The notes: a model not told the origin generated them from the letters alone. Positions 16,935-48,414 are shown, numbered from the stretch's first letter. The stretch: DNA of 64,000 nt from an uncultured archaeon (GCA_964458565.1 CAYWJO010000010.1:1-64000); one strand, 5' to 3'. Numbers and translations: made by a program.

Positions 16935-17048
16935 TTCGTTTTTAGGTTTGCAGTGGGTCTTAGACCCCCTGCCTATTCATTTTCCATATGAAAACCATTT
17001 CCGCAACAATTTTCAATACACGTGTTACTCCAAATATTGGGATTTTCA

Positions 17049-17956: not shown

Positions 17957-17992
17957 AACGAGCATCTATCTTTGCAACGGTAAGCCTTATGA

Positions 17993-18922: not shown

Positions 18923-18931
18923 GGGAATCTT

Positions 18932-19611: not shown

Positions 19612-19613
19612 AA

Positions 19614-21464: not shown

Positions 21465-21916
21465 TCGTCTGGCAGTATTTCACGCACAACTTCGTTTAGT
21501 AGTTTCTGTGTTGACATTGAAACATCCAAATCATTCTCATCAAATATGAGAACTACTGCTGCTGCATATTCAGAGGTGTGGGAAAGACTAAGTGATATTT
21601 TAAGTTTGGACGAATCTGGTAGGTGAATCTGAGGTGCTCCTATTTCATCACGAAGCACCTCAATCATCTGCATTCCGAGTGGCGTTTCTGCGTTCAAAGC
21701 TTTAACTACTGCTTCTTTACCAGCGAAAGTCACGGCAAGATGAGGTGCAGGATCACTATATCTGTAACAATAGTCTATTTCACGTTCGGAGAAGACCCGC
21801 GTAACGAATTGTGAACCTTTAGATAATCCTCTAAATCGCTTTATTTCGGTAAGGTCTGCACCAATACTGAATTTTGGATGAGATGGGATTTCATTCACCT
21901 GTTGTCGGGATATCAC
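21461..21916 (-). CDS. acpS: holo-[ACP] synthase (phosphopantetheinyl transferase)
   Basis: IGADLTEIKRF, FSERE, FAGKEAVVKAL, GAP, SLSHTSEYAAAVV. Confidence 0.9.
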   Translation of the reverse strand: MISRQQVNEIPSHPKFSIGADLTEIKRFRGLSKGSQFVTRVFSEREIDYCYRYSDPAPHLAVTFAGKEAVVKALNAETPLGMQMIEVLRDEIGAPQIHLPDSSKLKISLSLSHTSEYAAAVVLIFDENDLDVSMSTQKLLNEVVREILPDE

Positions 21917-21945
21917 AGTGGAGCTCTTCTTATAATGCTAGTGAA

Positions 21946-34399: not shown

Positions 34400-34998
34400 G
34401 TGAATACAACATTCTTATTGCAGGTGTAGGAGGTCAAGGAAACCTCCTTCTCGGGAGAGTCTTAGCAGATGCTGCTGCAGATGATGGATATCGCCCTGTT
34501 ATCGGTGAAACCTTTGGTGCAAGCAGAAGAGGAGGAACAGTCTATACTCATCTACGAATTGCGAAAAGCGATTTAGGACCTCTGATACCTAGAGGGCGTC
34601 TGGATTTGCTAGTAGGGCTTGAACCTTTGGAAGCATTGAGAGCGAGTGTGAAATTCGCAGGACTAAATACAACTGCAATTGTTGCAATTGAACCGGTTCA
34701 GAGCACAATCAGTCAATCAGGGGAAGTCGACTACCCAGATGTGAAGACCATCATTGATCACCTGAGGAAATTGTGCGGGAGAGTGGAACCTATTAACACC
34801 AAGGAAATTCTACAAACAATTGGAACCTATAGGGTGTTAAACACTCTCATTCTTGGCATAATTTCTGAGATGGAAATTACGCCGCTAAGAAGGGAAACAA
34901 TTCAGTCATCCCTGGATAAAACCATTGGATTTCGAGGATTGAACAAAGAAGCATTTCTCGCTGGTGTTGAAGTAGTTGTAAAATCCAATAAAATTTGA
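34396..34998 (+). CDS. iorB: indolepyruvate:ferredoxin oxidoreductase beta subunit
   Basis: AGVGGQG, ETFGASRRGG.V..HLR, EPLEALR; overlaps iorA by 4 nt. Confidence 0.9.
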   Translation: MSEYNILIAGVGGQGNLLLGRVLADAAADDGYRPVIGETFGASRRGGTVYTHLRIAKSDLGPLIPRGRLDLLVGLEPLEALRASVKFAGLNTTAIVAIEPVQSTISQSGEVDYPDVKTIIDHLRKLCGRVEPINTKEILQTIGTYRVLNTLILGIISEMEITPLRRETIQSSLDKTIGFRGLNKEAFLAGVEVVVKSNKI

Positions 34999-35003
34999 TG
35001 TTT

Positions 35004-35993
35004 TTACATCCATGTTTCAAGTGTATCCTGAACGATGAAGAACTGTTTCCAGAGCCCAACAAGGGTATCTAGTGTTGATTCTGTACGCGTATCACCTAAA
35101 ACAGGAGCCAATAATCGACTCACTCTTGATGGAACTGGGGAATTCAATGATGTATCGATGTGACTAACAGTCAGGTAGTTACCGTAATCAAAGACCGCTC
35201 TGGCTGCTAGGAATTCAGATCGTTCCGAATACGAAAAGCCTCGAGCTTTCAAAAGTCCCTCAAGACCCCCGAATCTTCTCAGGAGAACTACTCCTTTTCG
35301 GGGACCAATACCTGGCACGCCTTTTTTATGAAAATCACATCCGCATACTATTGCCAAATCTCGAAGCTCCTCGAGCTCTAAATCAATGACTTCCTGAATT
35401 CCTTGAAGAGTGACTTGCTCCATCTGGTTCTTTGACAATTGCAAACTGCGGATGACATGGGGACTTCCAAAGAGTATCGCATCCATGTCATTGGACGCCA
35501 CAGAACCAACAAGCCCCTCACGGCACATAACAGCACACATCAACTCTGCTTCAGAGGATGCTGATACTACAGGAACACCAATTGAAGAGCATATATCCTT
35601 GAGATGTTGTGCCGCAAAGTAGGTTCTCAATGCAGGACTATTATTCAGAGGTTCAGCAATCTCTTGATTAAATGGATCACCTTCTTTTTTGTACCAACGA
35701 TAGAGACTGTTAGCGATATGAATCAGTTCTGGGTCTGCATCCCGCTTCAATGTTTCAGGCGGACCATCGAATACAAAGATAGGAATGATATGTTTCTTCA
35801 GAGACGTACGTATAAGACTTAACCCAATGGATACATGAGTCAGAGGTATACGTTCTCTAACACGTGTAACTCTGTTGATTGTTGACATTCTACGAATCAT
35901 ATAGTTGAACGCATCTATAGCAATTTTATTCATTGTCAATTCTGAAATATCAACCCAACGCCAAGGAATGAAGTCCCAACCCTTCACTCCCAA
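35004..35993 (-). CDS. FEN1/XPG-family 5' structure-specific nuclease (divergent) with C-terminal PIP box
   Basis: MGVKG, IAIDA, FVFDG, EAE..CA, SNDMDAILFG, GCDF..GVPGIGP helix-turn-helix, QDTLETWM. Confidence 0.88.
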   Translation of the reverse strand: MGVKGWDFIPWRWVDISELTMNKIAIDAFNYMIRRMSTINRVTRVRERIPLTHVSIGLSLIRTSLKKHIIPIFVFDGPPETLKRDADPELIHIANSLYRWYKKEGDPFNQEIAEPLNNSPALRTYFAAQHLKDICSSIGVPVVSASSEAELMCAVMCREGLVGSVASNDMDAILFGSPHVIRSLQLSKNQMEQVTLQGIQEVIDLELEELRDLAIVCGCDFHKKGVPGIGPRKGVVLLRRFGGLEGLLKARGFSYSERSEFLAARAVFDYGNYLTVSHIDTSLNSPVPSRVSRLLAPVLGDTRTESTLDTLVGLWKQFFIVQDTLETWM

Positions 35994-35995
35994 TA

Positions 35996-36712
35996 CTAGA
36001 ACCTCCGTAATGGTCGGATGCCAAACTCACCCATTCTTACCATGAGACTCTCAGGTTTTTTCAAAGTTGGTGATCTTTCAATCTTAATCTGGAAAGTGTA
36101 ACCGTGATTTTCAAAAGCGGTTATTCGAATCATGGAATCAATTGAGTGCTCCAGAACATTTCCCCCTACAGGTCGTGATGCACCAGTTATAGGATCTCGG
36201 GATGAATGGTCAGTGATTACAAGATGACTTGGAGAATCAATCATTGTTTCTCTTAGAGTTTCAAGCATGGAAAACAGGCGACGTTGCCTTTTCTTACTAC
36301 TAGGAGGCAAATTGAGATTGAGAGCACCTGTAAGACTATCAAGCACAATTATCGAGTAATTTGTAGCAACAGATGCAATAATTTCCTCAATATCATCCAA
36401 ACCCATGACATTTGCTACCATCAATTTCTGTAATGCATCTTCATTAGCATCACCCATAAGGCGTCTTGCAAGTGTTGGTTTGAAGTTGGTTCCTGAATCA
36501 AGATACACAGTCAGTTTACCGGAACGAATACATCCAACTGCAATCTCATGAGAGAGAATTGTCATTGGTGATCTCATTGGACCGTGAATAAGTGATATTT
36601 GTCCCGGGATGAGAACTGAACTAAACAAATCGTTTAGCTGCGGCGGGTAGAGTATTATTTCTGATTGCAAGTCAATTGAAAATTCATCAAGTGTCGTCAT
36701 TTTGCTCTTCAA
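35996..36712 (-). CDS. RadB/Rad51-paralog-like RecA-fold protein with degenerate Walker A
   Basis: PGQISLIHGPMRSPMT (no GKT), YLDSG, IVLDSL, PVGGNVLEH. Confidence 0.7.
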   Translation of the reverse strand: MKSKMTTLDEFSIDLQSEIILYPPQLNDLFSSVLIPGQISLIHGPMRSPMTILSHEIAVGCIRSGKLTVYLDSGTNFKPTLARRLMGDANEDALQKLMVANVMGLDDIEEIIASVATNYSIIVLDSLTGALNLNLPPSSKKRQRRLFSMLETLRETMIDSPSHLVITDHSSRDPITGASRPVGGNVLEHSIDSMIRITAFENHGYTFQIKIERSPTLKKPESLMVRMGEFGIRPLRRF

Positions 36713-37652
36713 CTCGTTTTATTGGTAATTTCCGCTCTAGGATGAGGCTTCGTAGTTCATTCGAATGCAAACTTGCGGAGGTCAACCCTGTTGCAAGTTC
36801 CTTTGGGACAAGTGCAGAAATCCCAGGTTTTGATGGAAAAATGGTTGTTCCAGGAGCCCATGAATCAATCAACAGACTGACTGAATTTGGATCTGTCATA
36901 TATTCATAATCAGTGAAAGTTATGCCAAAACGGGCATCTATGAAAGGTAATGCAAGAATTGCTTTCGTAAGTGTATGTGAGCATACTTTCGGACAATGCG
37001 TTTCAGGTAATTCAAGAATGTTCACAACATCTTCGATTGGAACCAGACTTGTATCAACGACAAGAGCGTCCATATCATTAAGATGAGTTAGAGAAACAGA
37101 CCACTCAACTCGTTGCTGAAATATCTCAATGATGCTATTATGGGCCCCCAAGGGAATGTGTAGTGCCTTTAGTTTGCTCGCAAGTTGGTCTACATACACC
37201 CATAACTCATCATCACTGATAGAATCAATGCCTCTTGCGGCCATGGAAGTATCTAATGATAACTTGTGATTGAACCCCTCATTTAAGCGGACCACAATTT
37301 GGTTAGGGTTCCGTACAACTGCACACAAGATAGTTACAGACGCTGTACCGACAATCGAAAAAAGCAATCCATTTTCTAAGCCTATGATGAAAACTGTTAC
37401 ACTCAAAAAAATAGTTGCAGTCCAACCAAGAACATTGGTAATCATTTTCACAGGTTCATTGAACATTGATGATCCTGCAATTCGAAGTACACCGAGAGTG
37501 ACTAGAAAGACTAGTATCAATGGTATATTATTTCCTAGTCTATAAGCAATTACAATAGAGTTTACAGAAGTGATTAGCTGTGTCCCCAATGTGAGTGTAA
37601 TTGCCCCAATTACTGCATACTTGGCTATACGAAAGATTGTTCCTCCGAACAT
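36687..37652 (-). CDS. membrane protein (about 4 N-terminal TM helices plus soluble domain)
   Basis: Four hydrophobic segments in the first ~115 aa; overlaps both neighbours. Confidence 0.7.
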   Translation of the reverse strand: MFGGTIFRIAKYAVIGAITLTLGTQLITSVNSIVIAYRLGNNIPLILVFLVTLGVLRIAGSSMFNEPVKMITNVLGWTATIFLSVTVFIIGLENGLLFSIVGTASVTILCAVVRNPNQIVVRLNEGFNHKLSLDTSMAARGIDSISDDELWVYVDQLASKLKALHIPLGAHNSIIEIFQQRVEWSVSLTHLNDMDALVVDTSLVPIEDVVNILELPETHCPKVCSHTLTKAILALPFIDARFGITFTDYEYMTDPNSVSLLIDSWAPGTTIFPSKPGISALVPKELATGLTSASLHSNELRSLILERKLPIKRVEEQNDDT

Positions 37653-38341
37653 TTCGAAACCCCCTTGATTGATTCGCTGATAGCGAGGCGAGTGACTTTC
37701 GGTAGTCCGTCGCTTTTCAGAACCTGAATCGCTATCTGTGTATTATTTATTGTATCATTAATTTCAGTGCGATAGCTTCCATGTGGACGAAGAAGTTGAA
37801 GGTCGATGTCAACCCATTTTCTAAGAGCATCATGGAAAACCGGTTTGGGCCCTTCAGAATCAAGAGTTCGACATTCACTAGTGCACAGAATTGATATTTT
37901 TCTTGAGGTGACAAGTCCAGCTAAATATGGAAGGACATCTTCAACCATCTCTCGTCCCCAGAGCAGAGGGTCACGTCGAGCCATATCAAGGACTCGAGTA
38001 ATTGTGTCAATTATTACAAGAGATGTCGTATCATCTATCTCGCTCTTGAGGTTAGTTATGGCATCATACGTTTCTGAACTTCCCTTTGTGAGAATTATCA
38101 CGATGTTTGAAGAATTACCATTATATAGTGCAACTAAATCCCTTAAGCGCTGAATGAAGTTTACTTTGAAATCAGTGCATATCCAGATTACATGCGAGTT
38201 TCTACTTTTTATTGCAGCTGCTTGCATGGCTAACAAAGTTTTTCCTGAACCTGAAGCACCCCATAGATGAATAAATCCTTGAACACCTAAATATTTCAAT
38301 AAATCTGATTCTTGAGATAGAGAAGAATCAGAGTTTCGCAT
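37625..38341 (-). CDS. RadB/Rad51-paralog-like RecA-fold ATPase
   Basis: HLWGASGSGKT Walker A, LVIIDT Walker B; no N-terminal HhH domain. Confidence 0.78.
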   Translation of the reverse strand: MRNSDSSLSQESDLLKYLGVQGFIHLWGASGSGKTLLAMQAAAIKSRNSHVIWICTDFKVNFIQRLRDLVALYNGNSSNIVIILTKGSSETYDAITNLKSEIDDTTSLVIIDTITRVLDMARRDPLLWGREMVEDVLPYLAGLVTSRKISILCTSECRTLDSEGPKPVFHDALRKWVDIDLQLLRPHGSYRTEINDTINNTQIAIQVLKSDGLPKVTRLAISESIKGVSKCSEEQSFV

Positions 38342-38347: not shown

Positions 38348-40027
38348 CTATTCCTCCTCTGATTTCTCAACCTTGTCTTTAATCTCTTGCAGATGGATCT
38401 CGGTTTTCATCTTTATAACATCATCAGCAATCAAATCAGTTTGAATAGTTTCTCTTGCTTTACGATGGCGTCGCGGAATAGTTTCTGGTTCCCTAGGAGT
38501 TGATTCTGAAGTCGTGTCTTCTGAAGTTCTGACGACATCTTGTGTTGAGTCTGCTATAATTGAAATTTCTTCTAATCCATCTTCTTCATTTGAATCAGTC
38601 AAATCCTGAAGAACAGAATCATATTCTCCCTTGATTTCCTCGTCGGACTCGGGGTCAGGTTCTTCTACCGTTGGGGAATATTCCGCTTCAGGAATTGACT
38701 CGGCTAAAGCATCAGTGAGCTCTTCACTAACATGGTGCATACTCCAATTATTGAGCACATCATCAACTGTGTCCTTGACTTGGGGGCTTAGAACCCCCGA
38801 GTTAAAGAGGACTAGGCTTAAACTAGTCAGATGTGTCACTACCTCATCTCCAGAAAGTGCCGCTTCAGTGTGTCCAGTCAGGGCAGAGTATGCTAGAGCA
38901 AGAGATTCTTCCTCACCATCCTCGAAATTCACTTCTAGGAACTGGAACAACCCTAGAAATTTGGACAACCCCTTATCAGCTGTGAAAGGAGTATCTTTAG
39001 GTGGATGTAGTCCAGGGGAGAGACGAACACATTCATCTAAAACAATAGAAGCATAATGTACTGATTCGTTTACATCTCCGTTAGAGATAGACTCTACCGA
39101 AGCCCCAAAAAGTGTTGGAATAACGAAATTCAATTCATTGATAACATTTAGTTGCTCCTTGTTTTGATGTACGGTTTCCTCAATCCGTTTCAAATCACCG
39201 ATACCAGACAACTGCATAGATTCAGCTTCTCTTGATTCTTTGAAAATCTCAATTTGTCTCTTGGATATATACGAAAAATATGCTGTAAGTATAACTGATG
39301 CGAGAAGTGTAATTCCAGCAATTGGAATTAGCCATGATTGTTCCAAGATTGCAAATAATATGGAAATAGTAGCGAGTAAAGTTAGAGAGATTCCTAGTAG
39401 TGAATAAAAGCTCATCAGCGTGGCTTTCTGAAGTGAGTCCCATTTCTCTGTATCAATCCCTTGTTTTAATTCAGGAAGTCTAGAACGAGCATCACTTGAA
39501 CGAGCAATTGCGAATTCATTTATTGAGAGAATACGGTTCCCCTCGGTAATCCAAGAAAGGTCGTATGATGGACGGACATCATTTGTAACAACATATACTG
39601 TACGGGTTTCATGAATCAAAGAGGTCTTGTTCTTTTTTAGAGCTGCTTTGCTGGGAGCTAACAGGCGTAATGGAATTTTACCCCATACGGTCCGAATTGA
39701 TTTCTCAACGAGTTGATCGTTTAATGATAGCTCATTCATGATTGACTCCAAAGGTCGATTAATGACATCCAGGACATGGGATTTCATACCTGCAGGACTT
39801 TTCCCAAATTTGGCACTTCTAAGATCTAGTACATGTACAACCTCAACATGAACTCCTCTTGTATCAGGAATTCCAGAGAATCTTATACCTATGCTAATTC
39901 CATTCTCCTTTTTTAATGTGTGATGACCACTTCGGTCTAGGATTCGTATGATATCATAGTCCTTGGCAGTTGTTGTGTCTGTATCTTCTATTTCAGTATG
40001 AGTTGTTTTTTCCTCACTCGCAACCAT
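38348..40027 (-). CDS. membrane protein (two central TM helices, acidic low-complexity C-terminus)
   Basis: Hydrophobic hairpin at about aa 203-255; D/E-rich tail. Confidence 0.7.
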   Translation of the reverse strand: MVASEEKTTHTEIEDTDTTTAKDYDIIRILDRSGHHTLKKENGISIGIRFSGIPDTRGVHVEVVHVLDLRSAKFGKSPAGMKSHVLDVINRPLESIMNELSLNDQLVEKSIRTVWGKIPLRLLAPSKAALKKNKTSLIHETRTVYVVTNDVRPSYDLSWITEGNRILSINEFAIARSSDARSRLPELKQGIDTEKWDSLQKATLMSFYSLLGISLTLLATISILFAILEQSWLIPIAGITLLASVILTAYFSYISKRQIEIFKESREAESMQLSGIGDLKRIEETVHQNKEQLNVINELNFVIPTLFGASVESISNGDVNESVHYASIVLDECVRLSPGLHPPKDTPFTADKGLSKFLGLFQFLEVNFEDGEEESLALAYSALTGHTEAALSGDEVVTHLTSLSLVLFNSGVLSPQVKDTVDDVLNNWSMHHVSEELTDALAESIPEAEYSPTVEEPDPESDEEIKGEYDSVLQDLTDSNEEDGLEEISIIADSTQDVVRTSEDTTSESTPREPETIPRRHRKARETIQTDLIADDVIKMKTEIHLQEIKDKVEKSEEE

Positions 40028-42224
40028 TTTCTTTCACTCCGGGATTCAGTTTATTCAATCGTTCTTCAATATCAAGCAGAAGTCGGTTTGCCATTTCAGA
40101 TGGTTCCTCAAGACCTCCTACATCAGAAACTGCAGCGATGCAATACAAAAGCCAGCGACTCTGCTCTAAAAGAGCAACAACATCGCCCAGATGACGGCCA
40201 ATGCTCTTGCATATATCTTCAAGAGATATATCGGTAGTAGCAGCAGTGAGAAGTGTATTCTCAAATTGCTCATCAACAATATATGGACTCTCAAGTGATA
40301 TGAGATGTTTCAAGAGGGTCAGCAATTCAGAAGTCGTGTTAGTGACCGATAGAAGTGGTAGCATCTCTCGAACTGTACTTACCCGTAGATATAATCGGTT
40401 CACGACTCTACCCAAATGTGTAGGTTTCATTTTACTGTCATCCGCACCTTCCACTAGAGAGAGACGAATTAGAGTCATCAGCGGACTCACATCATTCAAT
40501 GCAAGAGGAATGACATAGTTCGTAAAATTGGGGACTTGTTGTATGGAATGTAGTCCTAAGGCTACTAAATGAGTACACAATAGTCGATCATGGGAAAATG
40601 GTTCACCACAAGAGCACATAGGTCCTTCAATGATACCATTAGTATCGGTTCGTGCAGAGAAGCGACATGTGTGATGTCCACCTCCTATCGATGTAACAAT
40701 GCCACCAACAACTGTGTCAGAGGTTTCACGAAGCTTGACTGAACCTAGAACGCCTTCACGTGCCGCTCTGACTGTTGCTCCTAACGCATATCTTTCAATC
40801 GAGCTTTCTGCAGTAACATCACCTAGATTTATCATTCTCATGGGTGAACGTGTATCACGAACCCCCATATGCATTAGAAACGATTCTCCTATCAAGCCTT
40901 GTTCAATATCAGTTATACTTCCCTGCTCACAGTAATCTAAAAACACCAGGAGTTGTTCAGCAAGAGCAGTTGAATCATGAAGAACGCTAATGACAGGCTC
41001 ATATCGTGGATGCAGTATCTCAGTGTTGGATTCAGGATCTTTGGTAGAAACGAAGTAGGTCTTTTTGACATATTCAGCTTCAGCGTAGCTATCAGTAAGA
41101 ATTATTCCATACCCTTTCTTGTCTTTTCCAGGACGCCCTGCTCTTCCCAACATTTGATGGACATGATTAGCTGAGAGATACTTCTGATAATCACCAGGAG
41201 ATCTTGTAGTCGAAATCACAACCGTGCGTGCTGGAAGATCCATACCAGCAGCAAGCGTTGTTGTGGCGCAGATGACTCTTACAAGACCGGTTCGGAATAA
41301 TCGCTCGATCAATCGACGGGAAGATGAATTCAATCCTGCATGATGAAAGGCAACCCCATCATGAAGGAGTGAGCGCAATTCGGAAGGTATATTGACATTC
41401 CAATTTTCAATGGAATCCAAATGCGAATCAAGATCTGTACGCTCCTTTATTGTTAGCTGTTTACTAACATGATATGAGAGTTCTACAGCTCCGATTTCTG
41501 CCTCTCGACGGGTTCGCATAAATACTACAGCCTGCCCATTTGCTTGAACCGTAGTCATCACAAAATCGCGAATCGCCTTCTTTTTGTCTTTGGATGGAAA
41601 TATCTTAGATACTAATGGAACAGGCCTCTCGTTTGAGTGAATTAGTTCACAATCTAGCCACTCTGCAAGATGAGCAGGTTCACCTATGGTAGCAGACAGT
41701 GCTACTATTTGTAAGTCATCTACTAGACGTCTCAACCGAATGATTGTACCTTCTAGCCTTGGTCCTCGTTCAGGTTGTGATAGAGTCTGAATTTCATCAA
41801 TTACTACTGTACCAATTTCAGAAAGCCAAGGAGTTCTATGTCGAAGAAGAGAGTCAGTACGTTCATAGGTTGTCACAATTATGTCATGGTCACCTAGTTC
41901 ATCACCCACAGTATGAAAATCGCCAGTGCTGATACCAATTGAAAATCCATGAGGTGTGTATCGTTCCTTGAAGGTTTCAGCAACTTGTACTGCAAGAGCG
42001 CGCAACGGAACCAAATAGAGCCCACGACGCCCATACATGACGGAACGAAGAAGTGCCATTTCTCCAACCATTGTTTTTCCAGAACCTGTGGGACTACATA
42101 CCATGATACTTCGGCCATTCAATAGACCCTTGTCCACAGATTCGATTTGAATTCCTCGAGGGCGAATACCCACTTGACCCAACAATCTGCCAACCTGAGT
42201 GGGTATTTCCTCAGTTGTGATCAA
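40014..42224 (-). CDS. Ski2-like (Hel308/HELQ-type) DExH helicase with inserted SWIM zinc finger
   Basis: SPTGSGKT, DEIQ, ALSAT, AFHHAGL, ATTTLAAGMDLPAR, QMLGRAGRPG; CSC-x10-CTH SWIM motif. Confidence 0.88.
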   Translation of the reverse strand: MITTEEIPTQVGRLLGQVGIRPRGIQIESVDKGLLNGRSIMVCSPTGSGKTMVGEMALLRSVMYGRRGLYLVPLRALAVQVAETFKERYTPHGFSIGISTGDFHTVGDELGDHDIIVTTYERTDSLLRHRTPWLSEIGTVVIDEIQTLSQPERGPRLEGTIIRLRRLVDDLQIVALSATIGEPAHLAEWLDCELIHSNERPVPLVSKIFPSKDKKKAIRDFVMTTVQANGQAVVFMRTRREAEIGAVELSYHVSKQLTIKERTDLDSHLDSIENWNVNIPSELRSLLHDGVAFHHAGLNSSSRRLIERLFRTGLVRVICATTTLAAGMDLPARTVVISTTRSPGDYQKYLSANHVHQMLGRAGRPGKDKKGYGIILTDSYAEAEYVKKTYFVSTKDPESNTEILHPRYEPVISVLHDSTALAEQLLVFLDYCEQGSITDIEQGLIGESFLMHMGVRDTRSPMRMINLGDVTAESSIERYALGATVRAAREGVLGSVKLRETSDTVVGGIVTSIGGGHHTCRFSARTDTNGIIEGPMCSCGEPFSHDRLLCTHLVALGLHSIQQVPNFTNYVIPLALNDVSPLMTLIRLSLVEGADDSKMKPTHLGRVVNRLYLRVSTVREMLPLLSVTNTTSELLTLLKHLISLESPYIVDEQFENTLLTAATTDISLEDICKSIGRHLGDVVALLEQSRWLLYCIAAVSDVGGLEEPSEMANRLLLDIEERLNKLNPGVKENGCE

Positions 42225-44554
42225 CCTTCACCCTCCAGGTCAGATAATTGTCGAAGAGCCATATCCCCCTTCATAGTAACACGATAATTGGTGTATGATA
42301 CACCACTATGTGTTTCATGTCCACGTAGTATCATACTTGAACTTTCAAGCCGAGCAATGATACCTTCGTAATCGACATCCTTCATATCGCCTGCAGACAT
42401 AAACTTGCGAATCGCTTCTTCAGTTAGAGGCTCATACTTCTTTAGTAGCCTAAGAACCTTCAGCGTGGCATCTCTATCACGTCCTGCAACTCTATCCAAT
42501 AATGAACCACTGGAGGTTGGAGAGTCAAGAATGGTTCCTGTAGATTTTATTCGTGATATTCGAAATTCCATGTCTTTAGACGAAGGTGACTCTGGCAGGA
42601 TAATATTGTCCAACTTCAAGGGGAGACAGACTTCAGTATCATCACGTGCAAGAAGCGCCATACCTGGTTCAAGAACTCGAAGATACGAACTCTCTCTGGG
42701 GGATACTCTCTGTTTTGAGTGCATCCCGGTGGAAATGACTGTTAATCCAAGGATATCAGACACTACTGCAATGTCATACTTGTTTCGCAATCTAAGTGCA
42801 ATGCATGAAGAGAGGACATCCGTTATACCAGTGGGTAATACTTGAGGCGCATTTGTGCTAATTACTAGTGGAACTCGATTGCTTAGGTTCTGTGCAACAC
42901 GGATTGCCCAAGGCAATCTCTTTTTGTATTTGGTAGTATTTACGATGAAATTAGAAGGTTCATCCAAAATCACAACTAAATCGTTATCAAGTTGTGACCA
43001 TGCAATCTTTGTACTTAACAAATCCCAGGCAAACATATCCAATTGAAGTGAGCCTGTTGAAATTACTAATACTGAAAGAGGTTGTTCTGTAAGTCGCTGA
43101 ACTGATATTGTCTGGTGTCCATAGAATGACTTTGCACCTGTACCTTGGTGAAGGACTCGAATTGCATCCATTGCTGCTCTTGATGAATCAGACACACTAG
43201 TTTCTGACTTAGTTGCATCATCACTTATTGGATCAACTGTTGAGAGCGTGATGTCAGCAACTGTTGCATTTCCTAATGCAACTGCTCTACTAAGCGCAAG
43301 CTCAAAATCTGCAGCAGAACTAAGCTCAGTTTCTGTCAGCACCTCCAGTGCTGTCTTTACTGATGACACAAACTCATTTCTCGGAACGCTTTCAGCATCA
43401 AGTGGATTGAGTACAAAATCTCGTCCAAGAACAAGTCCTAATCCATCTTGATGAAATCCAGTTAGGTTGAGGGATTCTTCATTTGATGTGACAAGTAGTA
43501 CGCGTTTATCATCATTGATCAACGCTGAAATCAATTGAGCAATTATACTCTGTCGCTCAACCCAAGATCCCCCGCAAAGAAGCAGACCAGTATCCAAATC
43601 ATTCTTGGAGAGACCAATCGAAGGTCCTGTTAGAAGTGTATCTGGATTAATTGATACACCAAGCCGATAGTCGCCAGGTCTGCTTCTAATTGGTGAAATG
43701 AACTGTCCAGGAACAGAACTTCCCACTTCAGAAGCCAATTCGCTGCTTAGTTGAACTAACCAATCCTTTAGCTCTCTCCCTGTAGTATAGAAACCAAAAT
43801 AGTTGGAAATTGGCATCCCGTTCTGAATCTTCTTCTCCAAATCATCTGGTGAAACTAGCTTTGATTTGAGGCCGGGGATAGTACCACGAACAGCGTTTTC
43901 AAGTGAACGCACTTTGGAAGAATCGTCTAAAATCCCGACAATTGATACATGTGTTTTCCACAGACCCCCTCGAGCTGACACATAAGCATCCATTTCACCA
44001 CTGGATTTTAACTCCAAGAAGGTTTCAAAATAGTCAGGGAAATGATCGTTATCAACAATCTCTTCAATTCTGGCTGGACCAAGTGTTACAGAAATGATAA
44101 TTCCAATTGAAGTATCAATGGAGCGAATCAATTTTCCTAAATTTCCTGACAACCGAGCTGGTGCTTTGTCAATTTCTAGCAGTGTGAAATAACGGTCACC
44201 ACCAGTCCCTCGAATACGAACTGACTTTTCGGAGGTGCTAAGAGTTAAATCCAATGAATCAAGCTCTGTCCATTCCGAGTCGGAAACAGATTTTGATTCA
44301 TTTGCTGTTGTCAGATATGGAAGAATCATTGCAAATGCTGCAACACTCATAGATGCAACGATTACTATCCAAGGATAGAAACAAGTGAGAATTACAACCG
44401 CAGCTGCAGTTAGTACATAGGGAATCCAATGAGGTCTAATCTCTCGATCTGTCCATCTTACCTCATTATCACGTGTAACAGATAAGGATGATTGACTGAC
44501 TTCCTCAAGGGGGTCTCGCTCTGGTTTACTCCCCATGATATGACCTCTAGTCAA
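42221..44554 (-). CDS. membrane-anchored HerA/VirB4/FtsK-superfamily ATPase-like protein with degenerate Walker A and C-terminal wHTH
   Basis: N-terminal TM pair; YRLG...L...DL..GLLLCGGSWVER at the Walker A position; GRDFVLNPL, VVILDEP, ISTNAPQ.L...IALRL, L.PGMALL; Y.VT.KG wing. Confidence 0.62.
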   Translation of the reverse strand: MTRGHIMGSKPERDPLEEVSQSSLSVTRDNEVRWTDREIRPHWIPYVLTAAAVVILTCFYPWIVIVASMSVAAFAMILPYLTTANESKSVSDSEWTELDSLDLTLSTSEKSVRIRGTGGDRYFTLLEIDKAPARLSGNLGKLIRSIDTSIGIIISVTLGPARIEEIVDNDHFPDYFETFLELKSSGEMDAYVSARGGLWKTHVSIVGILDDSSKVRSLENAVRGTIPGLKSKLVSPDDLEKKIQNGMPISNYFGFYTTGRELKDWLVQLSSELASEVGSSVPGQFISPIRSRPGDYRLGVSINPDTLLTGPSIGLSKNDLDTGLLLCGGSWVERQSIIAQLISALINDDKRVLLVTSNEESLNLTGFHQDGLGLVLGRDFVLNPLDAESVPRNEFVSSVKTALEVLTETELSSAADFELALSRAVALGNATVADITLSTVDPISDDATKSETSVSDSSRAAMDAIRVLHQGTGAKSFYGHQTISVQRLTEQPLSVLVISTGSLQLDMFAWDLLSTKIAWSQLDNDLVVILDEPSNFIVNTTKYKKRLPWAIRVAQNLSNRVPLVISTNAPQVLPTGITDVLSSCIALRLRNKYDIAVVSDILGLTVISTGMHSKQRVSPRESSYLRVLEPGMALLARDDTEVCLPLKLDNIILPESPSSKDMEFRISRIKSTGTILDSPTSSGSLLDRVAGRDRDATLKVLRLLKKYEPLTEEAIRKFMSAGDMKDVDYEGIIARLESSSMILRGHETHSGVSYTNYRVTMKGDMALRQLSDLEGEG

Positions 44555-44822: not shown

Positions 44823-45411
44823 TGATAGCAACACCTCCTGAAGTAATACTACGAGCCTGTGGGAGTGTAGCAGGTAAGACTGCCACATGTGGATAAGCTG
44901 ATCGCATTGCACTCTCCAGTACCTCCACATCATAGAGTAATTTCTCACTCAGTTTTGTGGCTTTGGAGATTCCATTGAGTAATCTAAGACCTCTCCTATG
45001 CACTGAAAATCCAACTTGTGTTTGACCAGCTCTTAATGGGCGTGAAACAAAGAACCTGACAAAAGACCCATCATTGGACTCATAGTGAAGAGACATGGCT
45101 TCAAGAACACGTTCAGCAGAATGAGTCAGGTCGATTCCTATAGGAACACTTCCGAGTTGGCGAATCGCAGTTACCTCAACAGTCCATTTACTCAGAGTGG
45201 TAATTATTCCAAGTTGCGAATTCCAAAGGTTCATTGAAACTCGTTGATGCTTTGAAAAGATTGACATCACAAGCAATAGTGCCACAAATCCCAATACAAC
45301 CTCAACACTAGGAATAACAGATTGTTGTAACCATGCTAGAATTGTCCAACCAGAAAACATTGAGGCAGGAAGTACATAACGGAATAGTGAATAATCAAGG
45401 ATTGTTTTCAT
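44815..45411 (-). CDS. membrane protein (two N-terminal TM helices plus soluble domain)
   Basis: Hydrophobic aa ~8-52; ATGA overlap with the helicase stop. Confidence 0.68.
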   Translation of the reverse strand: MKTILDYSLFRYVLPASMFSGWTILAWLQQSVIPSVEVVLGFVALLLVMSIFSKHQRVSMNLWNSQLGIITTLSKWTVEVTAIRQLGSVPIGIDLTHSAERVLEAMSLHYESNDGSFVRFFVSRPLRAGQTQVGFSVHRRGLRLLNGISKATKLSEKLLYDVEVLESAMRSAYPHVAVLPATLPQARSITSGGVAIIE

Positions 45412-47357
45412 GAAGTCATTCTCCCTCCTAGAAAAAGGTTGATTGCCTCCTCAATCTCTCTGACTTGATTGTATGGCCAAATGTCAGAAACCGTGTCATC
45501 GCCGAAGATAGATAGATATCGATGAAATCTGTTATCCAAAAGAAGTACAACACCCCAGTCTTTTGGAGACCTCCTGAGTCTACCCGTAAGCTGAGCCACT
45601 TGACGTACGGAAGGTACAACTGTTGAATAGTAATATCCTATGCCTTCTCCAAATCTTTTATCATACCAATCTTGCAGAGCCTTCTGATACGTAGTGGGAG
45701 GACTGAACGGAATTCCAACTCCAATAATAAGATTCACCATACTGGACCCATTTTGGACTAAATCGATGCCTTCACTGAACTTTCCACCATAGACACAGAA
45801 TATGGCTTTCGGTCCTTCAAATACTGCTCTCTTAAGATCTTCCAAGCGTGCAGTTCGTGTCTCAACAATGCGTTCCCTAATAGTCGTTTGAATCCCATAG
45901 CTTAGTACTTCTTCCATAATTGAGTAACTTGAAAATGCCACTAATGCACTCTTATCAGGGGGCATCACTCTTAATGCAACATTGATACGCTCAGCAATTG
46001 CTCGCCATAAGTCCTGTTTTCGTTCAGTGTATTTTGTAGATAGTTTCTTATCCAATAGAACTAAACGAGTCCCACGACTATACGGGCTCGATAGATCCTC
46101 AACAATAGCCTGTTTAACACCCAGGAGTTCAGCATAATGTCTGAGTGGTCTCAAAGTTCCAGACATCAAGAGTGCTGAGCGAACAGCTCGTAAGACTGGA
46201 GCTGCAAGCCCTGCGGTACTCAAAGGGCGAATCTTTAATTTCGTATTAATAAGTGATACTTCTTCCTTCCACCGCTGATGCAATTCTAATGTTGCCAGCC
46301 AGTCATCACTAGTTACAGAATGTGATGCAGTTATGAGAAAATCAACGAGCTTGTCTAGAGGGGTTTCTGCTTGTGATGAATCATCAATCTCCTCCATAGC
46401 AACAGTGTTGTTGACCAATAGGGATAGATCGTCTGATTCAACATATCGTGGGAAAACATCCCACTTATTGAGCCGTTTTTCGTGACCCTTCATATTGTCC
46501 AAAGAAACCATAACGGTCTCCCAGAGAAAATCAACAGCTTCTTCGATCCAAGGAATCCGGGTCTCTTTCAAGATAGCAGACTTGTGCTCTCGGAGCCAAC
46601 GTAGATCTTCTCCAGTTAATGTTGCGGTCTGAGCATTTAGAATATGATCGGGGAGGTTGTGTGCCTCATCAATTATAATATCAGTATCAAATATATCAAC
46701 ACCCAGGGAATTGAGAAATGCCTCACGTGCTCGATCTTTGAACATATATCCATAAGGACCGATGACAACTCTACTACTCTTGGCACACCATCTAAGGACT
46801 TCGTAGGGACAGAGACCTTCTAGAAGTGCAGTATCTTCACCAACTGTTCTAGAAACTACTCCATCATTGAGCAAATCCTCAACCGTTTGCCTAGCCGCTT
46901 TCCGGATAGAAGGACGTCCATTCTCACTCTTTTCATAAAAATCATGATAGAAGGTGCATAGGCCTGTCCGAACTAGTTCAGCACATGAACGATTGAAACC
47001 ATTAGTGGAAATATTTGACATTGATTCCCTCATAGGGCAAATATGGCGCCGCGAAACCATACTTGTGGCTGTGATATCAACGTGTGCACTGTTTCTTAAC
47101 ACCTGTATCTCACTCTCAAAGACCTCAGACTGAGAGTGGGTTCTTGTTAATACAAGCAGCCGGGAATTATTGTCGCAAAACCTAGCCGCAAAATATCCAG
47201 CAAGAACAGCCATGGTCTTTCCAACTCCACAGTCTGCAGATAATAGACCCACAGTCTTATCATGAAACACTTGAGATGCAAAAACTATGGCGCGATCCTG
47301 ATGTGGCCTCGGTGTATAAGGAAACCAAGCAATTGGATCCACATCAGTAACAACCAA
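45408..47357 (-). CDS. XPD/Rad3/DinG-family Fe-S cluster 5'-3' DNA helicase
   Basis: FPYTPRPHQ, ADCGVGKT, RTHSQ, four Cys (HICP, RSC, LCTF, LCPYE), IIDEAHN, MSGTL, SEGID, Q..GRLRRS..DWG..LLLDNRF. Confidence 0.9.
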   Translation of the reverse strand: MVVTDVDPIAWFPYTPRPHQDRAIVFASQVFHDKTVGLLSADCGVGKTMAVLAGYFAARFCDNNSRLLVLTRTHSQSEVFESEIQVLRNSAHVDITATSMVSRRHICPMRESMSNISTNGFNRSCAELVRTGLCTFYHDFYEKSENGRPSIRKAARQTVEDLLNDGVVSRTVGEDTALLEGLCPYEVLRWCAKSSRVVIGPYGYMFKDRAREAFLNSLGVDIFDTDIIIDEAHNLPDHILNAQTATLTGEDLRWLREHKSAILKETRIPWIEEAVDFLWETVMVSLDNMKGHEKRLNKWDVFPRYVESDDLSLLVNNTVAMEEIDDSSQAETPLDKLVDFLITASHSVTSDDWLATLELHQRWKEEVSLINTKLKIRPLSTAGLAAPVLRAVRSALLMSGTLRPLRHYAELLGVKQAIVEDLSSPYSRGTRLVLLDKKLSTKYTERKQDLWRAIAERINVALRVMPPDKSALVAFSSYSIMEEVLSYGIQTTIRERIVETRTARLEDLKRAVFEGPKAIFCVYGGKFSEGIDLVQNGSSMVNLIIGVGIPFSPPTTYQKALQDWYDKRFGEGIGYYYSTVVPSVRQVAQLTGRLRRSPKDWGVVLLLDNRFHRYLSIFGDDTVSDIWPYNQVREIEEAINLFLGGRMTS

Positions 47358-47360: not shown

Positions 47361-47975
47361 TCAAGCCTCCACTCTTAGACAAGACTCTGCTGTGTGAATT
47401 CTGAAACGAATCGAGAAATAATTACTCATCAACTGGTGAAAACGTCTAACATGTTCAGGTCGATAGAACTCTGGTTCACGATTTGCTATCTTATCAACAA
47501 TATCTGGACTGTAACCTTTCTTCTTTGCCGCCATCCAGAAATAATCCTCCACTTCTTTCATCGTAGAAAGAATGAAAGTCAAGCTTTGTTCCATCAAATC
47601 AGTAATGAAAGAAACAGCGACTTTAGGTTTGGAAGGAATTTGGGAAGTTCTAACACCTGTCGGGATGTAAACAGCAATGCCTTCTGTACTATCAAGGTAA
47701 ACCTCTTTTGGAACACTTCTGGTCCCTCTCAATGTTTCAAGTAATGAGAGAACCCGCGGTAATTGTCCTAACATAGGACGAGTCGGTTCACGCCAATCTA
47801 CTCTAGTTACAACATATAATTCAGGATCTGGGTCCTTGTAGCCCTTCAAATCCAAAATCGTAATCCGATGCGGACTCTCACGAAGTAGCAGATTGACTAA
47901 GTTCAGTAGTGACCCACGGTTTACCCATGATGTAGCTCGAGGAACCCAAACAGGAGTCTCTATTGTTTCAACCAT
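47361..47975 (-). CDS. hypothetical protein
   Basis: 204-aa ORF, translationally coupled within the operon. Confidence 0.65.
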   Translation of the reverse strand: MVETIETPVWVPRATSWVNRGSLLNLVNLLLRESPHRITILDLKGYKDPDPELYVVTRVDWREPTRPMLGQLPRVLSLLETLRGTRSVPKEVYLDSTEGIAVYIPTGVRTSQIPSKPKVAVSFITDLMEQSLTFILSTMKEVEDYFWMAAKKKGYSPDIVDKIANREPEFYRPEHVRRFHQLMSNYFSIRFRIHTAESCLRVEA

Positions 47976-48414
47976 CAGCCACTCCCTCCTTTACCTCGAG
48001 ACCTCGATCATTATTTCCAATAACTCCCTCATTAATCAGTAAATCCAAAAAGTGCCGTGCGCGCTCAATATCAATTCCAGCATCGGCACATTCGACAAGT
48101 ACTATTTCATAGGCAATTGGACGTCCTCGATTTATTTCCGAAAGACTTTGCACGATATCTATGACCCTTCTTCTTACGCCACGAGCGCGAGACTTTTGGG
48201 GGGATTTCTCAAACTCGCTTTGATTCACCAGGTCACGAATATACTCCCGGGCCTCCACTGAAGTCACAGCATAAATCATACCAGGTCCGTGGATTACAAG
48301 AGCTCCACACAGTTCGCAAGATGATGTTTCACTTTCTCGTTCTACGCGAGAATGACCAATATTCCCACAAACACTGCATGTATAGACACGATACATACCC
48401 CGAGTGCCACTCAC
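47968..48414 (-). CDS. zinc ribbon plus C-terminal winged-helix protein
   Basis: CSVC..CELC; C-terminus (AGID.ERARHFLDLL.NEG.I) resembles the MCM/RPA32-type C-terminal wHTH. Confidence 0.62.
   Translation of the reverse strand: MSGTRGMYRVYTCSVCGNIGHSRVERESETSSCELCGALVIHGPGMIYAVTSVEAREYIRDLVNQSEFEKSPQKSRARGVRRRVIDIVQSLSEINRGRPIAYEIVLVECADAGIDIERARHFLDLLINEGVIGNNDRGLEVKEGVADG

What the first reader, a model, noticed from the sequence alone, without database searches (positions are those of the whole stretch)
40014..42224. Hel308/HELQ-like helicase with an internal SWIM zinc finger, encoded beside two Rad51-paralog-like genes
Seen: an intact Ski2-like motor followed by a beta-rich insert ending in CSC-GEPFSHDRLL-CTH (SWIM CxC-xn-CxH, about 40560-40680), after which the T.LGR...RLY ratchet region resumes. 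The C-terminal HhH domain typical of Hel308 is not evident. Established: in eukaryotes HELQ works with the RAD51-paralog complex BCDX2, and the Shu complex pairs a SWIM protein (SWS1/ZSWIM7) with a Rad51-paralog-like partner (SWSAP1). Inference: this fusion and its neighbours may be a prokaryotic counterpart or precursor of those mediator modules.
Basis: partly seen in the sequence, partly recalled or inferred. Interest (0 to 1): 0.8.

Follow-up and report, generated by a model that had tools for sequence, protein, structure and literature searches.

The report
Asgard Hel308-like helicase with SWIM insert
This Thorarchaeota (Asgard) gene encodes a spare, intact-looking copy of the DNA-repair helicase Hel308 with a real SWIM-type zinc-finger module spliced into its winged-helix domain and no regulatory tail; it always lies among extra recombinase, nuclease and membrane genes, but nothing shows it is an ancestor of the human HELQ or Shu repair modules.

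Summary
ORF 40014-42224 (-) is a 736-aa Hel308-like SF2 helicase with intact motor motifs. A module of about 125 aa is inserted in its winged-helix domain and carries CSC-x10-CTH. These four ligands are invariant in 36 orthologues and in a wider Asgard family down to 21% identity. AlphaFold gives a confident four-strand-plus-helix fold. Its nearest structural neighbours are SWIM proteins (ESM Atlas) and ZSWIM8 (weak, Z 4.0). HhH domain 5 is absent.

The genome has a canonical Hel308, RadA and FEN1 elsewhere, so this gene is an accessory paralogue. It sits in a 15-gene operon that is syntenic in more than 20 Thorarchaeota genomes: RadA paralogue, XPD-like helicase, two RadB-like proteins, FEN-like nuclease, a HerA/CedB-like membrane protein and three other membrane proteins. 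In other Asgard lineages SWIM-helicases also lie near RadA-like, RadB-like and FEN-like genes.

The eukaryotic reading is not supported. I found no specific likeness to Shu2/SWS1, the CxHxxA alanine is not conserved, and the paralogues look RadB/RadA-like.

Most likely this is the 3'-5' motor of a membrane-associated recombination machine, with SWIM as a docking module. That role is inferred.

The scan has noted this family before, on other DNA from at least 23 genomes. I found no paper describing it.

The parts
40014..42224 (-). Hel308-like SF2 helicase with SWIM insert (736 aa, P0001). The TTG start overlaps the upstream gene by 4 nt, and the stop region overlaps the downstream gene by 14 nt.
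41025..42224 (-). RecA1 and RecA2 motor domains (residues about 1-400) with motifs I (GSGKT), II (DEIQ), III (SAT) and VI (QMLGRAGRPG).
   Evidence: Pfam DEAD and Helicase_C. Motifs invariant in 36 orthologues. hhalign to the genome's own canonical Hel308 over 6-454, probability 100.
40863..41024 (-). N-terminal part of the winged-helix domain 3 (residues about 401-454).
   Evidence: hhalign aligns P0001 up to residue 454 with canonical Hel308 residue 460, inside its HTH_61 domain 391-483.
40485..40862 (-). Insert of about 125 aa in the winged helix (residues 455-580): two helices, the SWIM module, then two helices.
40536..40748 (-). SWIM zinc-finger module (residues 493-563): four beta strands, then a helix that carries CxH.
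   Evidence: AF2 whole protein pLDDT 88, domain alone pLDDT 90. Atlas shape neighbours are SWIM proteins, TM 0.54-0.58. ZSWIM8 Z 4.0, 22-24% identity.
40569..40616 (-). Zn-ligand signature C537-x-C539-x10-C550-x-H552.
   Evidence: Invariant. Weak PF04434 match at 40557-40616 (9.1 bits).
40389..40484 (-). C-terminal part of the winged helix (residues 581-612: recognition helix, wing, T.LGR..NRLY).
   Evidence: hhalign aligns 581-617 with canonical Hel308 472-508. This is weak (probability 2.8%, single-sequence template), but the motifs are collinear.
40047..40388 (-). Ratchet domain 4 (residues about 613-726). No HhH domain 5 follows.
   Evidence: Pfam Helicase_dom4_arc weak hit at 664-716. Helical bundle in the model. 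Whole-model Foldseek TM 0.64-0.72 to Hel308/Hjm.
42221..44554 (-). Upstream neighbour, 777 aa. Membrane-anchored HerA/VirB4/CedB-like protein without the P-loop lysine.
   Evidence: TM-like segment 43-83. Atlas features match DUF87/HerA/TrwB/CedB at 0.90-0.92. Profile against PDB: top five hits are all HerA/DUF87, E 0.0016-0.014. Consensus CGGxxxER.
38348..40027 (-). Downstream neighbour, 559 aa, of no known family, with a hydrophobic stretch at 203-255.
37625..38341 (-). RadB-like RecA-fold protein with Walker A kept (GxxGSGKT).
   Evidence: TIGR02237 E 5.6e-9. Alignment A6. PDB profile hits RadB 2cvf E 2.8e-5 and RAD51D E 2e-3.
36687..37652 (-). 321-aa membrane protein (TM-like segments about 32-115) between the two RadB-like genes.
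35996..36712 (-). Rad51/RadA-core paralogue with a degenerate P-loop (HGxERAPLT). GGNVLAH is kept.
   Evidence: Pfam Rad51 E 3.4e-9. Alignment A7. PDB profile hits P. furiosus Rad51 E 4.8e-16 and DMC1.
35004..35993 (-). FEN/XPG-like nuclease paralogue.
   Evidence: XPG_I E 2.2e-20. fen_arch 120.6 bits against a cut-off of 352. Canonical FEN1 is elsewhere.
45408..47357 (-). XPD/Rad3-like helicase paralogue.
   Evidence: DEAD_2, Helicase_C_2 and HBB. rad3 170 bits.
48411..49466 (-). Full-length RadA paralogue (HhH plus Rad51 core).
   Evidence: Pfam Rad51 E 2.2e-49. 224 bits against 460 bits for the canonical RadA on contig C57.

Best explanation
The gene encodes an accessory paralogue of the archaeal DNA helicase Hel308.

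Shown:
- It keeps the complete ATP-driven motor, the winged helix and the ratchet domain, so it should still translocate 3'-5' on single-stranded DNA.
- It has lost HhH domain 5.
- It has gained a module of about 125 aa, with a SWIM zinc finger at its core, spliced between the second and third helices of the winged helix.
- Its genomic partners are conserved.

Inferred:
- In Hel308, domain 5 is the brake and annealing element. A motor without it would be unbraked and non-annealing, with its control and targeting moved to the SWIM module.
- The SWIM module is as conserved as the motor and nearly uncharged. It therefore most likely acts as a docking surface for another subunit of the gene cluster (or for a DNA structure) rather than as a general DNA clamp.
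- The helicase works as one subunit of a conserved, optional, membrane-associated recombination machine. The other parts are a second RadA, one ATPase-competent and one degenerate RadB-like protein, an XPD-like helicase, a FEN-like nuclease, a membrane-anchored HerA/CedB-like ring protein without a P-loop lysine, and three more membrane proteins.
- XPD-family helicases move 5'-3', so the two helicases could process a DNA end or incoming DNA together, with the recombinase set then using the product.
For: Helicase identity and integrity:
- Hel308 NCBIfam models match residues 6-415.
- hhalign to the genome's canonical Hel308 gives probability 100 over 6-454.
- The whole AF2 model (pLDDT 88.4, pTM 0.86) matches Hel308/Hjm 2va8, 2p6r and 2zj8 at TM 0.64-0.72.
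- Motor motifs are invariant.

Paralogue status: canonical Hel308 (617 bits, with HTH_61, domain 4 and HHH_5), RadA and FEN1 lie on other contigs.

SWIM:
- Invariant CxC..CxH.
- Beta-strands-plus-helix fold.
- Atlas neighbours after its own family are SWIM or SNF2+SWIM proteins.
- ZSWIM8 is the top PDB row in pdb_via (Z 4.0, 72 aligned, 24% identity).
- A 24%-identical paralogue, aligned column for column, reaches PF04434 at 22.8 bits.

Insert position.

Conservation and charge: SWIM column identity is 0.68 against 0.68-0.71 for the motor domains; net charge is about -0.4.

Cluster:
- All 15 genes are present in most of 22 Thor loci.
- The core (RadA-like, RadB1-like, FEN-like, HerA-like, Zn-ribbon protein) recurs rearranged in other Asgard families.
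- Membrane segments. HerA/CedB likeness.

Domain 5 as brake and annealing element: PMC13623763.
Against: - No biochemical or binding evidence exists; polarity and activity are inferred from family membership.
- The SWIM sequence of this protein itself is far below Pfam's threshold (9.1 bits). PDB fold matches are weak (best Z 4.0-4.8, with unrelated sulfatase domains scoring as high).
- The partner of the SWIM module is unknown.
- The HerA-like assignment rests on weak E-values and on language-model features.
- Motif II is DEIQ rather than DExH.
- The cluster is patchy: orthologues were found in 57 of 85 genomes of the family, and six genomes listed at 91-93% completeness lacked a match. That also fits a defence or mobile role.
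- My tree could not show that SWIM-bearing helicases form one clade.
Confidence: 0.6

Rival explanations
1. One reading: the SWIM-helicase plus the two Rad51-paralogue-like proteins is a prokaryotic counterpart or evolutionary precursor of the eukaryotic HELQ-BCDX2 and Shu (SWS1-SWSAP1) mediator modules. On this view the SWIM insert binds the paralogues as SWS1 binds SWSAP1.
For: - The SWIM module is real and the helicase is of the Hel308/HELQ family.
- A RecA-family paralogue is a conserved neighbour across Asgard lineages. In one genus the order helicase, Zn-ribbon protein, RadB-like is directly adjacent.
- One paralogue is ATPase-competent and one degenerate, as in eukaryotic paralogue heteromers.
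- Asgard archaea are the closest known relatives of eukaryotes.
- HELQ binds BCDX2 (PMC13623763). Shu2/SWS1 SWIM proteins bind Rad51 paralogues (PMC5727457, PMC6316741).
Against: - The SWIM profile shows no sequence similarity to Shu2 or any other PDB chain.
- The CxHxxA alanine reported for Shu2/SWS1 is not conserved here.
- Shu2/SWS1 proteins are small stand-alone proteins, not helicase inserts.
- The paralogues resemble RadB, RadA, Rad51 and DMC1 generically.
- The whole fold is nearest archaeal Hel308, not the POLQ helicase domain.
- The genome's canonical Hel308, without SWIM, is the more likely HELQ counterpart.
- The cluster includes membrane and HerA-like proteins foreign to the eukaryotic modules.
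Confidence: 0.07
2. The cluster is an anti-virus or anti-plasmid defence system. The SWIM-helicase acts as its sensor or effector motor, as the Ski2-like HamB helicase does in Hachiman.
For: - Patchy, accessory distribution within the family (57 of 85 genomes).
- All enzymes are spare copies of housekeeping genes.
- The helicase core scores against HamB models (up to 128 bits). The XPD-like protein scores 265 bits against a type IV CRISPR DinG model.
- HerA-like proteins occur in defence systems; the top PDB hits include Sir2-HerA-type entries.
Against: - The HamB matches cover only the generic SF2 core; no HamA-like or other effector was found.
- None of the other eight cluster proteins scanned matched a defence-system component at E <= 0.001; the only extra hit was a 20-bit P-loop match of the RadB-like protein to Cas3fv.
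- A full-length recombinase with paralogue mediators and a flap nuclease points to making recombinant DNA rather than destroying it.
- Base composition is like its surroundings.
Confidence: 0.15
3. The SWIM insert is a nucleic-acid-recognition element, not a protein dock. It would extend the winged helix, which in Hel308 recognises branched substrates, to give the paralogue a new DNA-structure specificity.
For: - It is spliced into the winged-helix domain, named as the substrate-recognition domain of Hel308 (PMC13623763).
- SWIM domains are predicted to bind DNA or proteins (PMC5727457, citing Makarova et al. 2002).
- Conserved arginines R489, R499 and R521 lie in or next to the module.
Against: - The module is nearly uncharged on average (net about -0.4), unlike the basic RecA2 and C-terminal winged-helix parts (+5.6 and +3.2).
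- Degenerate, Walker-A-less paralogues keep the SWIM module. This suits a scaffold role at least as well.
Confidence: 0.25
4. The Cys/His pattern is a chance or purely structural zinc knuckle unrelated to SWIM.
For: - Pfam SWIM is not detected in this protein at E <= 10 by hmmscan and scores only 9.1 bits in the genome search.
- Foldseek against PDB finds nothing significant.
Against: - The ligands are invariant to 21% identity.
- Many relatives carry the classic CxCxx[FWY]...CKH form, and 3 of 19 hit PF04434.
- Fold topology and Atlas neighbours are SWIM.
- ZSWIM8 is the top PDB row covering the whole module.
Confidence: 0.03

Closest known systems
Archaeal Hel308/Hjm (PDB 2p6r, 2va8, 2zj8) and the helicase domains of eukaryotic HELQ/POLQ
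   Same: RecA1-RecA2 motor with motifs I, II, III and VI, winged helix and ratchet domain. Whole-model TM 0.64-0.72 and about 25% identity to Hel308/Hjm. Probability 100 to the genome's own Hel308 over residues 6-454.
   Different: - Scores far below the Hel308 equivalog cut-offs (295 against 1200 bits; 370 against 887).
- Motif II is DEIQ.
- A SWIM-containing insert of about 125 aa sits inside the winged helix.
- There is no HhH domain 5.
- It is a second copy beside a canonical Hel308.
- It is encoded in a recombination and membrane gene cluster.
SWIM zinc finger (PF04434), as in bacterial SNF2-family helicases with SWIM and in ZSWIM8
   Same: CxC-xn-CxH signature with n = 9-10 here and up to 21 in relatives. 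Beta strands followed by a helix that starts at CxH. Atlas shape matches to SWIM proteins at TM 0.54-0.58 over 67-72 residues. ZSWIM8 at Z 4.0 and 22-24% identity. Association with an SF2 ATPase.
   Different: - It is an internal insert in the winged helix of a Ski2-like helicase, not a terminal domain of an SNF2 ATPase.
- This protein's own sequence is sub-threshold for the Pfam model.
- The aromatic after CxC is replaced by G-x-P in the Thor operon clade.
Shu complex: Shu2/SWS1 (SWIM) with Rad51 paralogues (Shu1, Psy3, Csm2; SWSAP1)
   Same: A SWIM module is genomically tied to divergent RecA-fold paralogues, one with and one without a P-loop, next to a bona fide recombinase.
   Different: - No detectable sequence likeness.
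- The CxHxxA alanine is not conserved.
- The SWIM is part of a helicase rather than a small free protein.
- No evidence of contact.
- The cluster context is membrane-associated.
Crenarchaeal Ced DNA-import system (CedA/CedB); comparison for the gene cluster only
   Same: A membrane-anchored HerA/VirB4-like protein with small membrane partners. CedB clusters are among the Atlas look-alikes of the 777-aa neighbour.
   Different: - The P-loop lysine is missing here.
- Ced has no dedicated helicases, recombinase or nuclease.
- The likeness is by language-model features and weak profile hits only.

Membership tests
SWIM zinc finger (PF04434) | CxC-xn-CxH ligand signature, conserved among homologues | tested here: met
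   C537, C539, C550 and H552 are invariant in 36 orthologues and in 19 wider relatives down to 21% identity. The signature is present in all 20 further Asgard relatives.
SWIM zinc finger (PF04434) | Match to the family profile at the curated threshold (19.6 bits) | tested here: inconclusive
   This protein scores 9.1 bits, E 6.6, and gets no hmmscan hit at E <= 10. A paralogue aligned over the same columns scores 22.8 bits in the genome search and 18.1 bits by hmmscan. Three of 19 relatives hit at E < 0.1.
SWIM zinc finger (PF04434) | Fold: beta strands followed by an alpha helix bearing CxH | tested here: met
   AF2 domain model, pLDDT 90.2: strands 8-14, 18-24, 30-39 and 45-50, helix 64-76. 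Atlas neighbours are SWIM families at TM 0.54-0.58. ZSWIM8 at Z 4.0 is weak. These are predicted structures only.
SWIM zinc finger (PF04434) | Zinc binding | not testable with these tools
   Needs metal analysis of purified protein.
Hel308/Hjm | SF2 Ski2-like motor with motifs I, II, III and VI | tested here: met
Hel308/Hjm | Equivalog-level profile score (NF040935 cut-off 1200; PRK02362 cut-off 887) | tested here: not met
   295 and 370 bits, matching residues 6-415 only. The genome's canonical copy scores 617 bits over the full length, also below the cut-off.
Hel308/Hjm | Winged-helix domain 3 and ratchet domain 4 | tested here: met
   Whole-model TM 0.64-0.72 to Hel308/Hjm. The winged helix is split by the insert. 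Weak Helicase_dom4_arc hit.
Hel308/Hjm | C-terminal HhH domain 5 | tested here: not met
   No HhH profile hit, and the protein ends about 10-20 residues after domain 4. HHH_5 is present in the canonical copy and in 3 of 19 wider relatives.
Hel308/Hjm | 3'-5' DNA helicase/translocase activity | not testable with these tools
   Biochemical assay needed.
Shu2/SWS1 family | Extended signature CxC..CxHxxA with a conserved alanine (PMC6316741) | tested here: not met
   P0001 has A555. At H+3 only 21 of 36 orthologues and 5 of 19 wider relatives have Ala.
Shu2/SWS1 family | Small stand-alone SWIM protein | tested here: not met
   The SWIM is an internal insert of a 736-aa helicase.
Shu2/SWS1 family | Sequence or structural likeness to Shu2/SWS1 | tested here: inconclusive
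   The profile of the module finds no PDB chain at E <= 10. Shu2 is not among the listed fold rows, which does not exclude it.
Shu2/SWS1 family | Direct binding to a Rad51 paralogue | not testable with these tools
   Needs pull-down or co-purification.

The most novel reading that the evidence does not exclude
The genomic partnership between a SWIM module (here built into a Hel308-type motor) and divergent RecA-fold paralogues is Asgard-wide. It may be the ancestral form of the eukaryotic SWIM-Rad51-paralogue partnership (Shu2/SWS1 with SWSAP1/Shu1) and of HELQ's cooperation with RAD51 paralogues. On this view the eukaryotic free SWIM protein arose by release of the insert.
Probability: 0.07. 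Interest if true: 0.85.

Novelty: new variant of a known kind. Interest (0 to 1): 0.55.

Why it matters
Hel308/HELQ helicases control recombination from archaea to humans. How they are targeted and restrained is an open question.

Here is a natural variant in the closest relatives of eukaryotes. It has traded the regulatory HhH tail for a zinc-finger module in the substrate-recognition domain. It is also hard-wired by gene order to a second recombinase, two RecA-fold mediators, a second helicase, a flap nuclease and membrane proteins.

It offers a defined set of proteins, so far not described in the papers I searched, in which to test three things:
- what a SWIM domain does on a helicase;
- how Rad51-paralogue-like mediators work in archaea;
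- whether Asgard archaea have a dedicated, membrane-linked DNA recombination (possibly DNA-exchange) machine.

The architecture is rare. Only 43 cluster representatives among 1.84 billion proteins matched its C-terminal profile, and all those that carried names were Asgard.

Tried and rejected
1. Complex prediction of the SWIM module with both RadB-like proteins, each as an alignment, returned 'no answer', score 0.00. This is no evidence either way.

2. Foldseek of the SWIM-module model against PDB gave nothing at E <= 0.001. In pdb_via_wide the best Z was 4.8, to sulfatase C-terminal domains, which I take as a common beta-alpha arrangement. ZSWIM8 was rank 4.

3. Profile searches of the insert (A1, A3) against PDB sequences gave nothing meaningful.

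4. The search for related loci with alignment A1 failed because no stretch was conserved enough. I used the genome search and the fetch from genomes instead.

5. A maximum-likelihood tree of SWIM-bearing helicases and this genome's other Ski2-like paralogues was unresolved at depth, with long-branch outgroups. One origin of the SWIM insert is neither shown nor excluded.

6. Literature searches found no description of this variant: 'Asgard/Hel308/SWIM', 'SWIM zinc finger + Hel308' and 'Thorarchaeota RadA Hel308 XPD operon'. The Ski2-family survey PMC10946056 does not mention SWIM. Godin et al. 2015 on Shu2/SWS1 evolution is not held.

7. The ESM Atlas features search for the 559-aa neighbour gave no usable hit.

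8. Mobile-element origin: I did not search for integrases or repeats. Base composition matches the surroundings. I left this open rather than rejected.

Full report
**1. The observation**

ORF 40014-42224 on the minus strand is open for 736 codons.
- Pfam finds DEAD (25-182) and Helicase_C (290-366).
- NCBIfam Hel308-type models match residues 6-415 strongly, but far below their equivalog cut-offs: 370 against 887 bits and 295 against 1200 bits.

A word-indexed search with residues 400-736 found 45 clusters of about 730 aa. Those with names were Thorarchaeota, and one was labelled Lokiarchaeota.
- In 36 full-length orthologues down to 49% identity, the four ligands are invariant. So are motifs I (GSGKT), II (D-E-x-Q), III (SAT) and VI (QMLGRAGRP).
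- The first refutation criterion, non-conserved Cys/His, therefore fails.

**2. Is it SWIM?**

Pfam's SWIM model does not reach this protein by hmmscan, even at E <= 10. A genome-wide search gives only 9.1 bits at 40557-40616.

The same search found a 22.8-bit hit, over the 19.6-bit threshold, in another ORF of this genome (contig C19; L006:1474-3690, 738 aa).
- This ORF is a Hel308-like protein. It aligns with ours over residues 25-633 at 24% identity, with CSC...CKH on CSC...CTH.
- By hmmscan it scores 18.1 bits.

A profile of the winged-helix/SWIM/ratchet region was scored against 1.84 billion cluster representatives. It matched only 43.
- Full-length members are named Thor-, Loki-/Prometh-, Hel-, Hermod- and Ranarchaeia.
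- Across 19 such proteins (mean identity 34%, down to 21%) only 16 columns are invariant, and four of them are C537, C539, C550 and H552.
- Many members show the classic CxCxx[FWY]...CKH form. Three of 19 hit PF04434 at E < 0.1.

AlphaFold2 models agree.
- With the family alignment the whole protein has pLDDT 88.4 and pTM 0.86. It shows four strands (494-537) ending at CxC and a helix (551-563) starting at CxH.
- The module alone (488-578) folds the same way at pLDDT 90.

Fold searches give moderate support.
- In the ESM Atlas, after its own family, the nearest models are SWIM family proteins and bacterial SNF2+SWIM helicases (TM 0.54-0.58, 67-72 residues, rmsd about 3 Å).
- Among solved structures the matches are weak. 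Foldseek finds nothing.
- VIA-align puts ZSWIM8 at Z 4.0 with 72-74 residues aligned and 22-24% identity. That is rank 4 in the wide search and rank 1 in the second look.

I conclude that it is a genuine, divergent SWIM module. Zinc binding itself is untested.

**3. Where it sits, and what is missing**

The genome's canonical Hel308 (contig C5, 743 aa) has HTH_61 at 391-483, domain 4 at 525-651 and HHH_5 at 657-710.
- Profile comparison aligns our family with it from 6 to 454, equivalent to canonical residue 460.
- Residues 581-617 (PLMTLIRLSLVEGADDSKMKPTHLGRVVNRLYLRVST) align with canonical 472-508. This alignment is weak but collinear.
- So about 125 residues (455-580) are inserted inside the winged helix: two helices, the SWIM module, then two helices.
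- The 'T.LGR...RLY' segment is the end of the winged helix rather than the ratchet.

Domain 4 follows (weak Helicase_dom4_arc hit at 664-716). The chain ends at 736 with a disordered tail, so there is no HhH domain 5. Three of 19 wider relatives, the proteins of about 850 aa, do keep HHH_5.

The whole model matches Hel308/Hjm structures at TM 0.64-0.72 and about 25% identity. The POLQ helicase domain comes next at about 18%.

**4. Genomic setting**

The genome (3.73 Mb, 93 contigs, 93% complete) also has a canonical RadA (460 bits) and a canonical FEN1 (436 bits) elsewhere. The RadA-like, FEN-like, XPD-like and Hel308-like genes of this stretch are therefore spare copies.

They form a run of 15 minus-strand genes from 50640 to 35004, with overlapping or nearly abutting ends. 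In order:
1. 240 aa
2. 176 aa
3. RadA paralogue
4. 148-aa Cys-rich protein
5. 204 aa
6. XPD-like helicase
7. 198 aa (one TM segment)
8. about 100-133 aa
9. 777 aa (TM segment)
10. the SWIM helicase
11. 559 aa (hydrophobic stretch 203-255)
12. RadB-like protein with Walker A
13. 321 aa (several TM segments)
14. Rad51-core paralogue without a P-loop
15. FEN-like nuclease

The same order is found in three metagenomic contigs and in most of 20 further genomes of the same family. Orthologues of the helicase (E < 1e-70) occur in 57 of 85 genomes of that family. Six listed genomes at 91-93% completeness lack a match, so the cluster is accessory.

I built profile HMMs of the 15 proteins and searched them against 20 loci from other Asgard families.
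- Every helicase hit carries CxC..CxH at the same position.
- A RadA-like or RadB-like gene lies within 10 kb in 11 of the 16 loci that are at least 10 kb long.
- FEN-like genes occur in 8 loci, relatives of the 777-aa protein in 9, and relatives of the 148-aa protein in 8.
- In one genus the order helicase, 148-aa-like protein, RadB-like is directly adjacent.
- Related genomes are not independent.

The 777-aa neighbour looks HerA/VirB4/CedB-like.
- By language-model features it scores 0.90-0.92.
- Its five best PDB profile hits are all HerA/DUF87, E 0.0016-0.014.
- Its P-loop reads CGGxxxER, without a lysine.

PADLOC finds nothing beyond generic helicase-core hits (HamB), a DinG-type hit for the XPD-like protein and a weak P-loop hit for one RadB-like protein.

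**5. How it most likely works**

Shown:
- an intact Hel308-type motor with winged helix and ratchet;
- a conserved SWIM module;
- loss of domain 5;
- conserved linkage to recombinase, mediator-like, nuclease and membrane genes.

From established knowledge (PMC13623763), Hel308 moves 3'-5' on ssDNA, its winged helix recognises substrates, and domain 5 brakes the motor and supports annealing.

Inferred:
- This paralogue is an unbraked 3'-5' translocase whose targeting has moved to the SWIM module.
- The module is as conserved as the motor (0.68 against 0.68-0.71 column identity) and nearly neutral in charge. Walker-A-less paralogues also keep it. A docking role for a partner subunit is therefore somewhat more likely than general DNA binding.
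- XPD-family helicases move 5'-3'. The cluster thus has two motors of opposite polarity, a flap nuclease, a recombinase with two mediator-like proteins, and a membrane-anchored, probably inactive, HerA/CedB-like ring.
- This suggests a membrane-associated machine that processes a DNA end or incoming DNA and recombines it.
- A defence role is the main alternative for the cluster.

**6. The eukaryotic reading**

HELQ-BCDX2 and Shu2/SWS1-Rad51-paralogue partnerships are established (PMC13623763, PMC5727457, PMC6316741). I found no specific link to them.
- The SWIM profile finds no PDB sequence.
- The Shu2/SWS1 alanine of CxHxxA is not conserved.
- The paralogues match RadB, RadA, Rad51 and DMC1 generically, with RAD51D only weakly.
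- The canonical, SWIM-less Hel308 of the same genome is the natural HELQ counterpart.
- The complex prediction gave no verdict.

The resemblance is one of logic, a SWIM module tied to RecA-fold paralogues. Ancestry is not shown.

**7. Novelty**

I found no paper describing a SWIM-bearing Hel308. This scan has already noted the same family many times on other DNA: 33 notes in at least 23 genomes, with follow-ups reaching the same verdict.

Here the canonical Hel308 of this genome has no such signature.

Verdict: this is a real and conserved feature, a new variant of a known kind. The functional reading is plausible and the evolutionary reading is unsupported.

Noticed in passing
G000 contig C19:21684-23900 (L006:1474-3690, +): A second SWIM-bearing Hel308-like protein in the same genome (738 aa). 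Walker A is degenerate (HDFDEAY in place of GSGKT) and motif II reads DRLD, so it is probably a pseudo-helicase, yet it has the most canonical SWIM (CSCESWKYQGLRKHRLCKH). A close relative (P0090) stands alone among housekeeping genes.
   Followed up: partly
window 42221-44554 (-): 777-aa membrane-anchored protein. Its look-alikes are HerA/DUF87/TrwB/VirB4 and the DNA-import ATPase CedB. Its P-loop lacks the lysine (CGGxxxER) in all 22 orthologues. In other Asgard lineages it is split into two ORFs of about 280 and 530 aa, or is part of a protein of about 1275-1420 aa.
   Followed up: partly
window 45408-47357 (-): The XPD/Rad3-like helicase scores 265 bits over nearly its full length against PADLOC's type IV-A CRISPR-associated DinG model. 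That exceeds its 170 bits against the TIGR rad3 model. No CRISPR or cas genes were looked for nearby.
   Followed up: no
window 50874-53225 (-): 783-aa protein with FG-GAP/BBS-like beta-propeller repeats and a C-terminal Ras/Roc-type small GTPase (Ras E 3.6e-47). It lies just upstream of the operon.
   Followed up: no
L009, L010, L011 (about 17000-22200) compared with window 32501-34998: In three other Thor contigs the operon is followed by a protein of about 550-680 aa on the opposite strand, then by a giant protein of 2300-2600 aa with faint MG2, Big and prenyltransferase-like hits. In this window it is followed by pyruvate:ferredoxin oxidoreductase genes. The operon therefore seems to have moved as a block.
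   Followed up: no
L087, L090, L092 (genomes G117, G118, G122): In one non-Thor Asgard genus the SWIM helicase is directly followed by a relative of the 148-aa Cys-rich protein and then a RadB-like gene. In Thorarchaeota these three genes lie kilobases apart.
   Followed up: no
window 47968-48414 (-): 148-aa protein with CxxC...CxxC near its N-terminus, a probable zinc ribbon. It has relatives beside SWIM helicases in at least 8 of 20 non-Thor loci. No family was assigned.
   Followed up: partly
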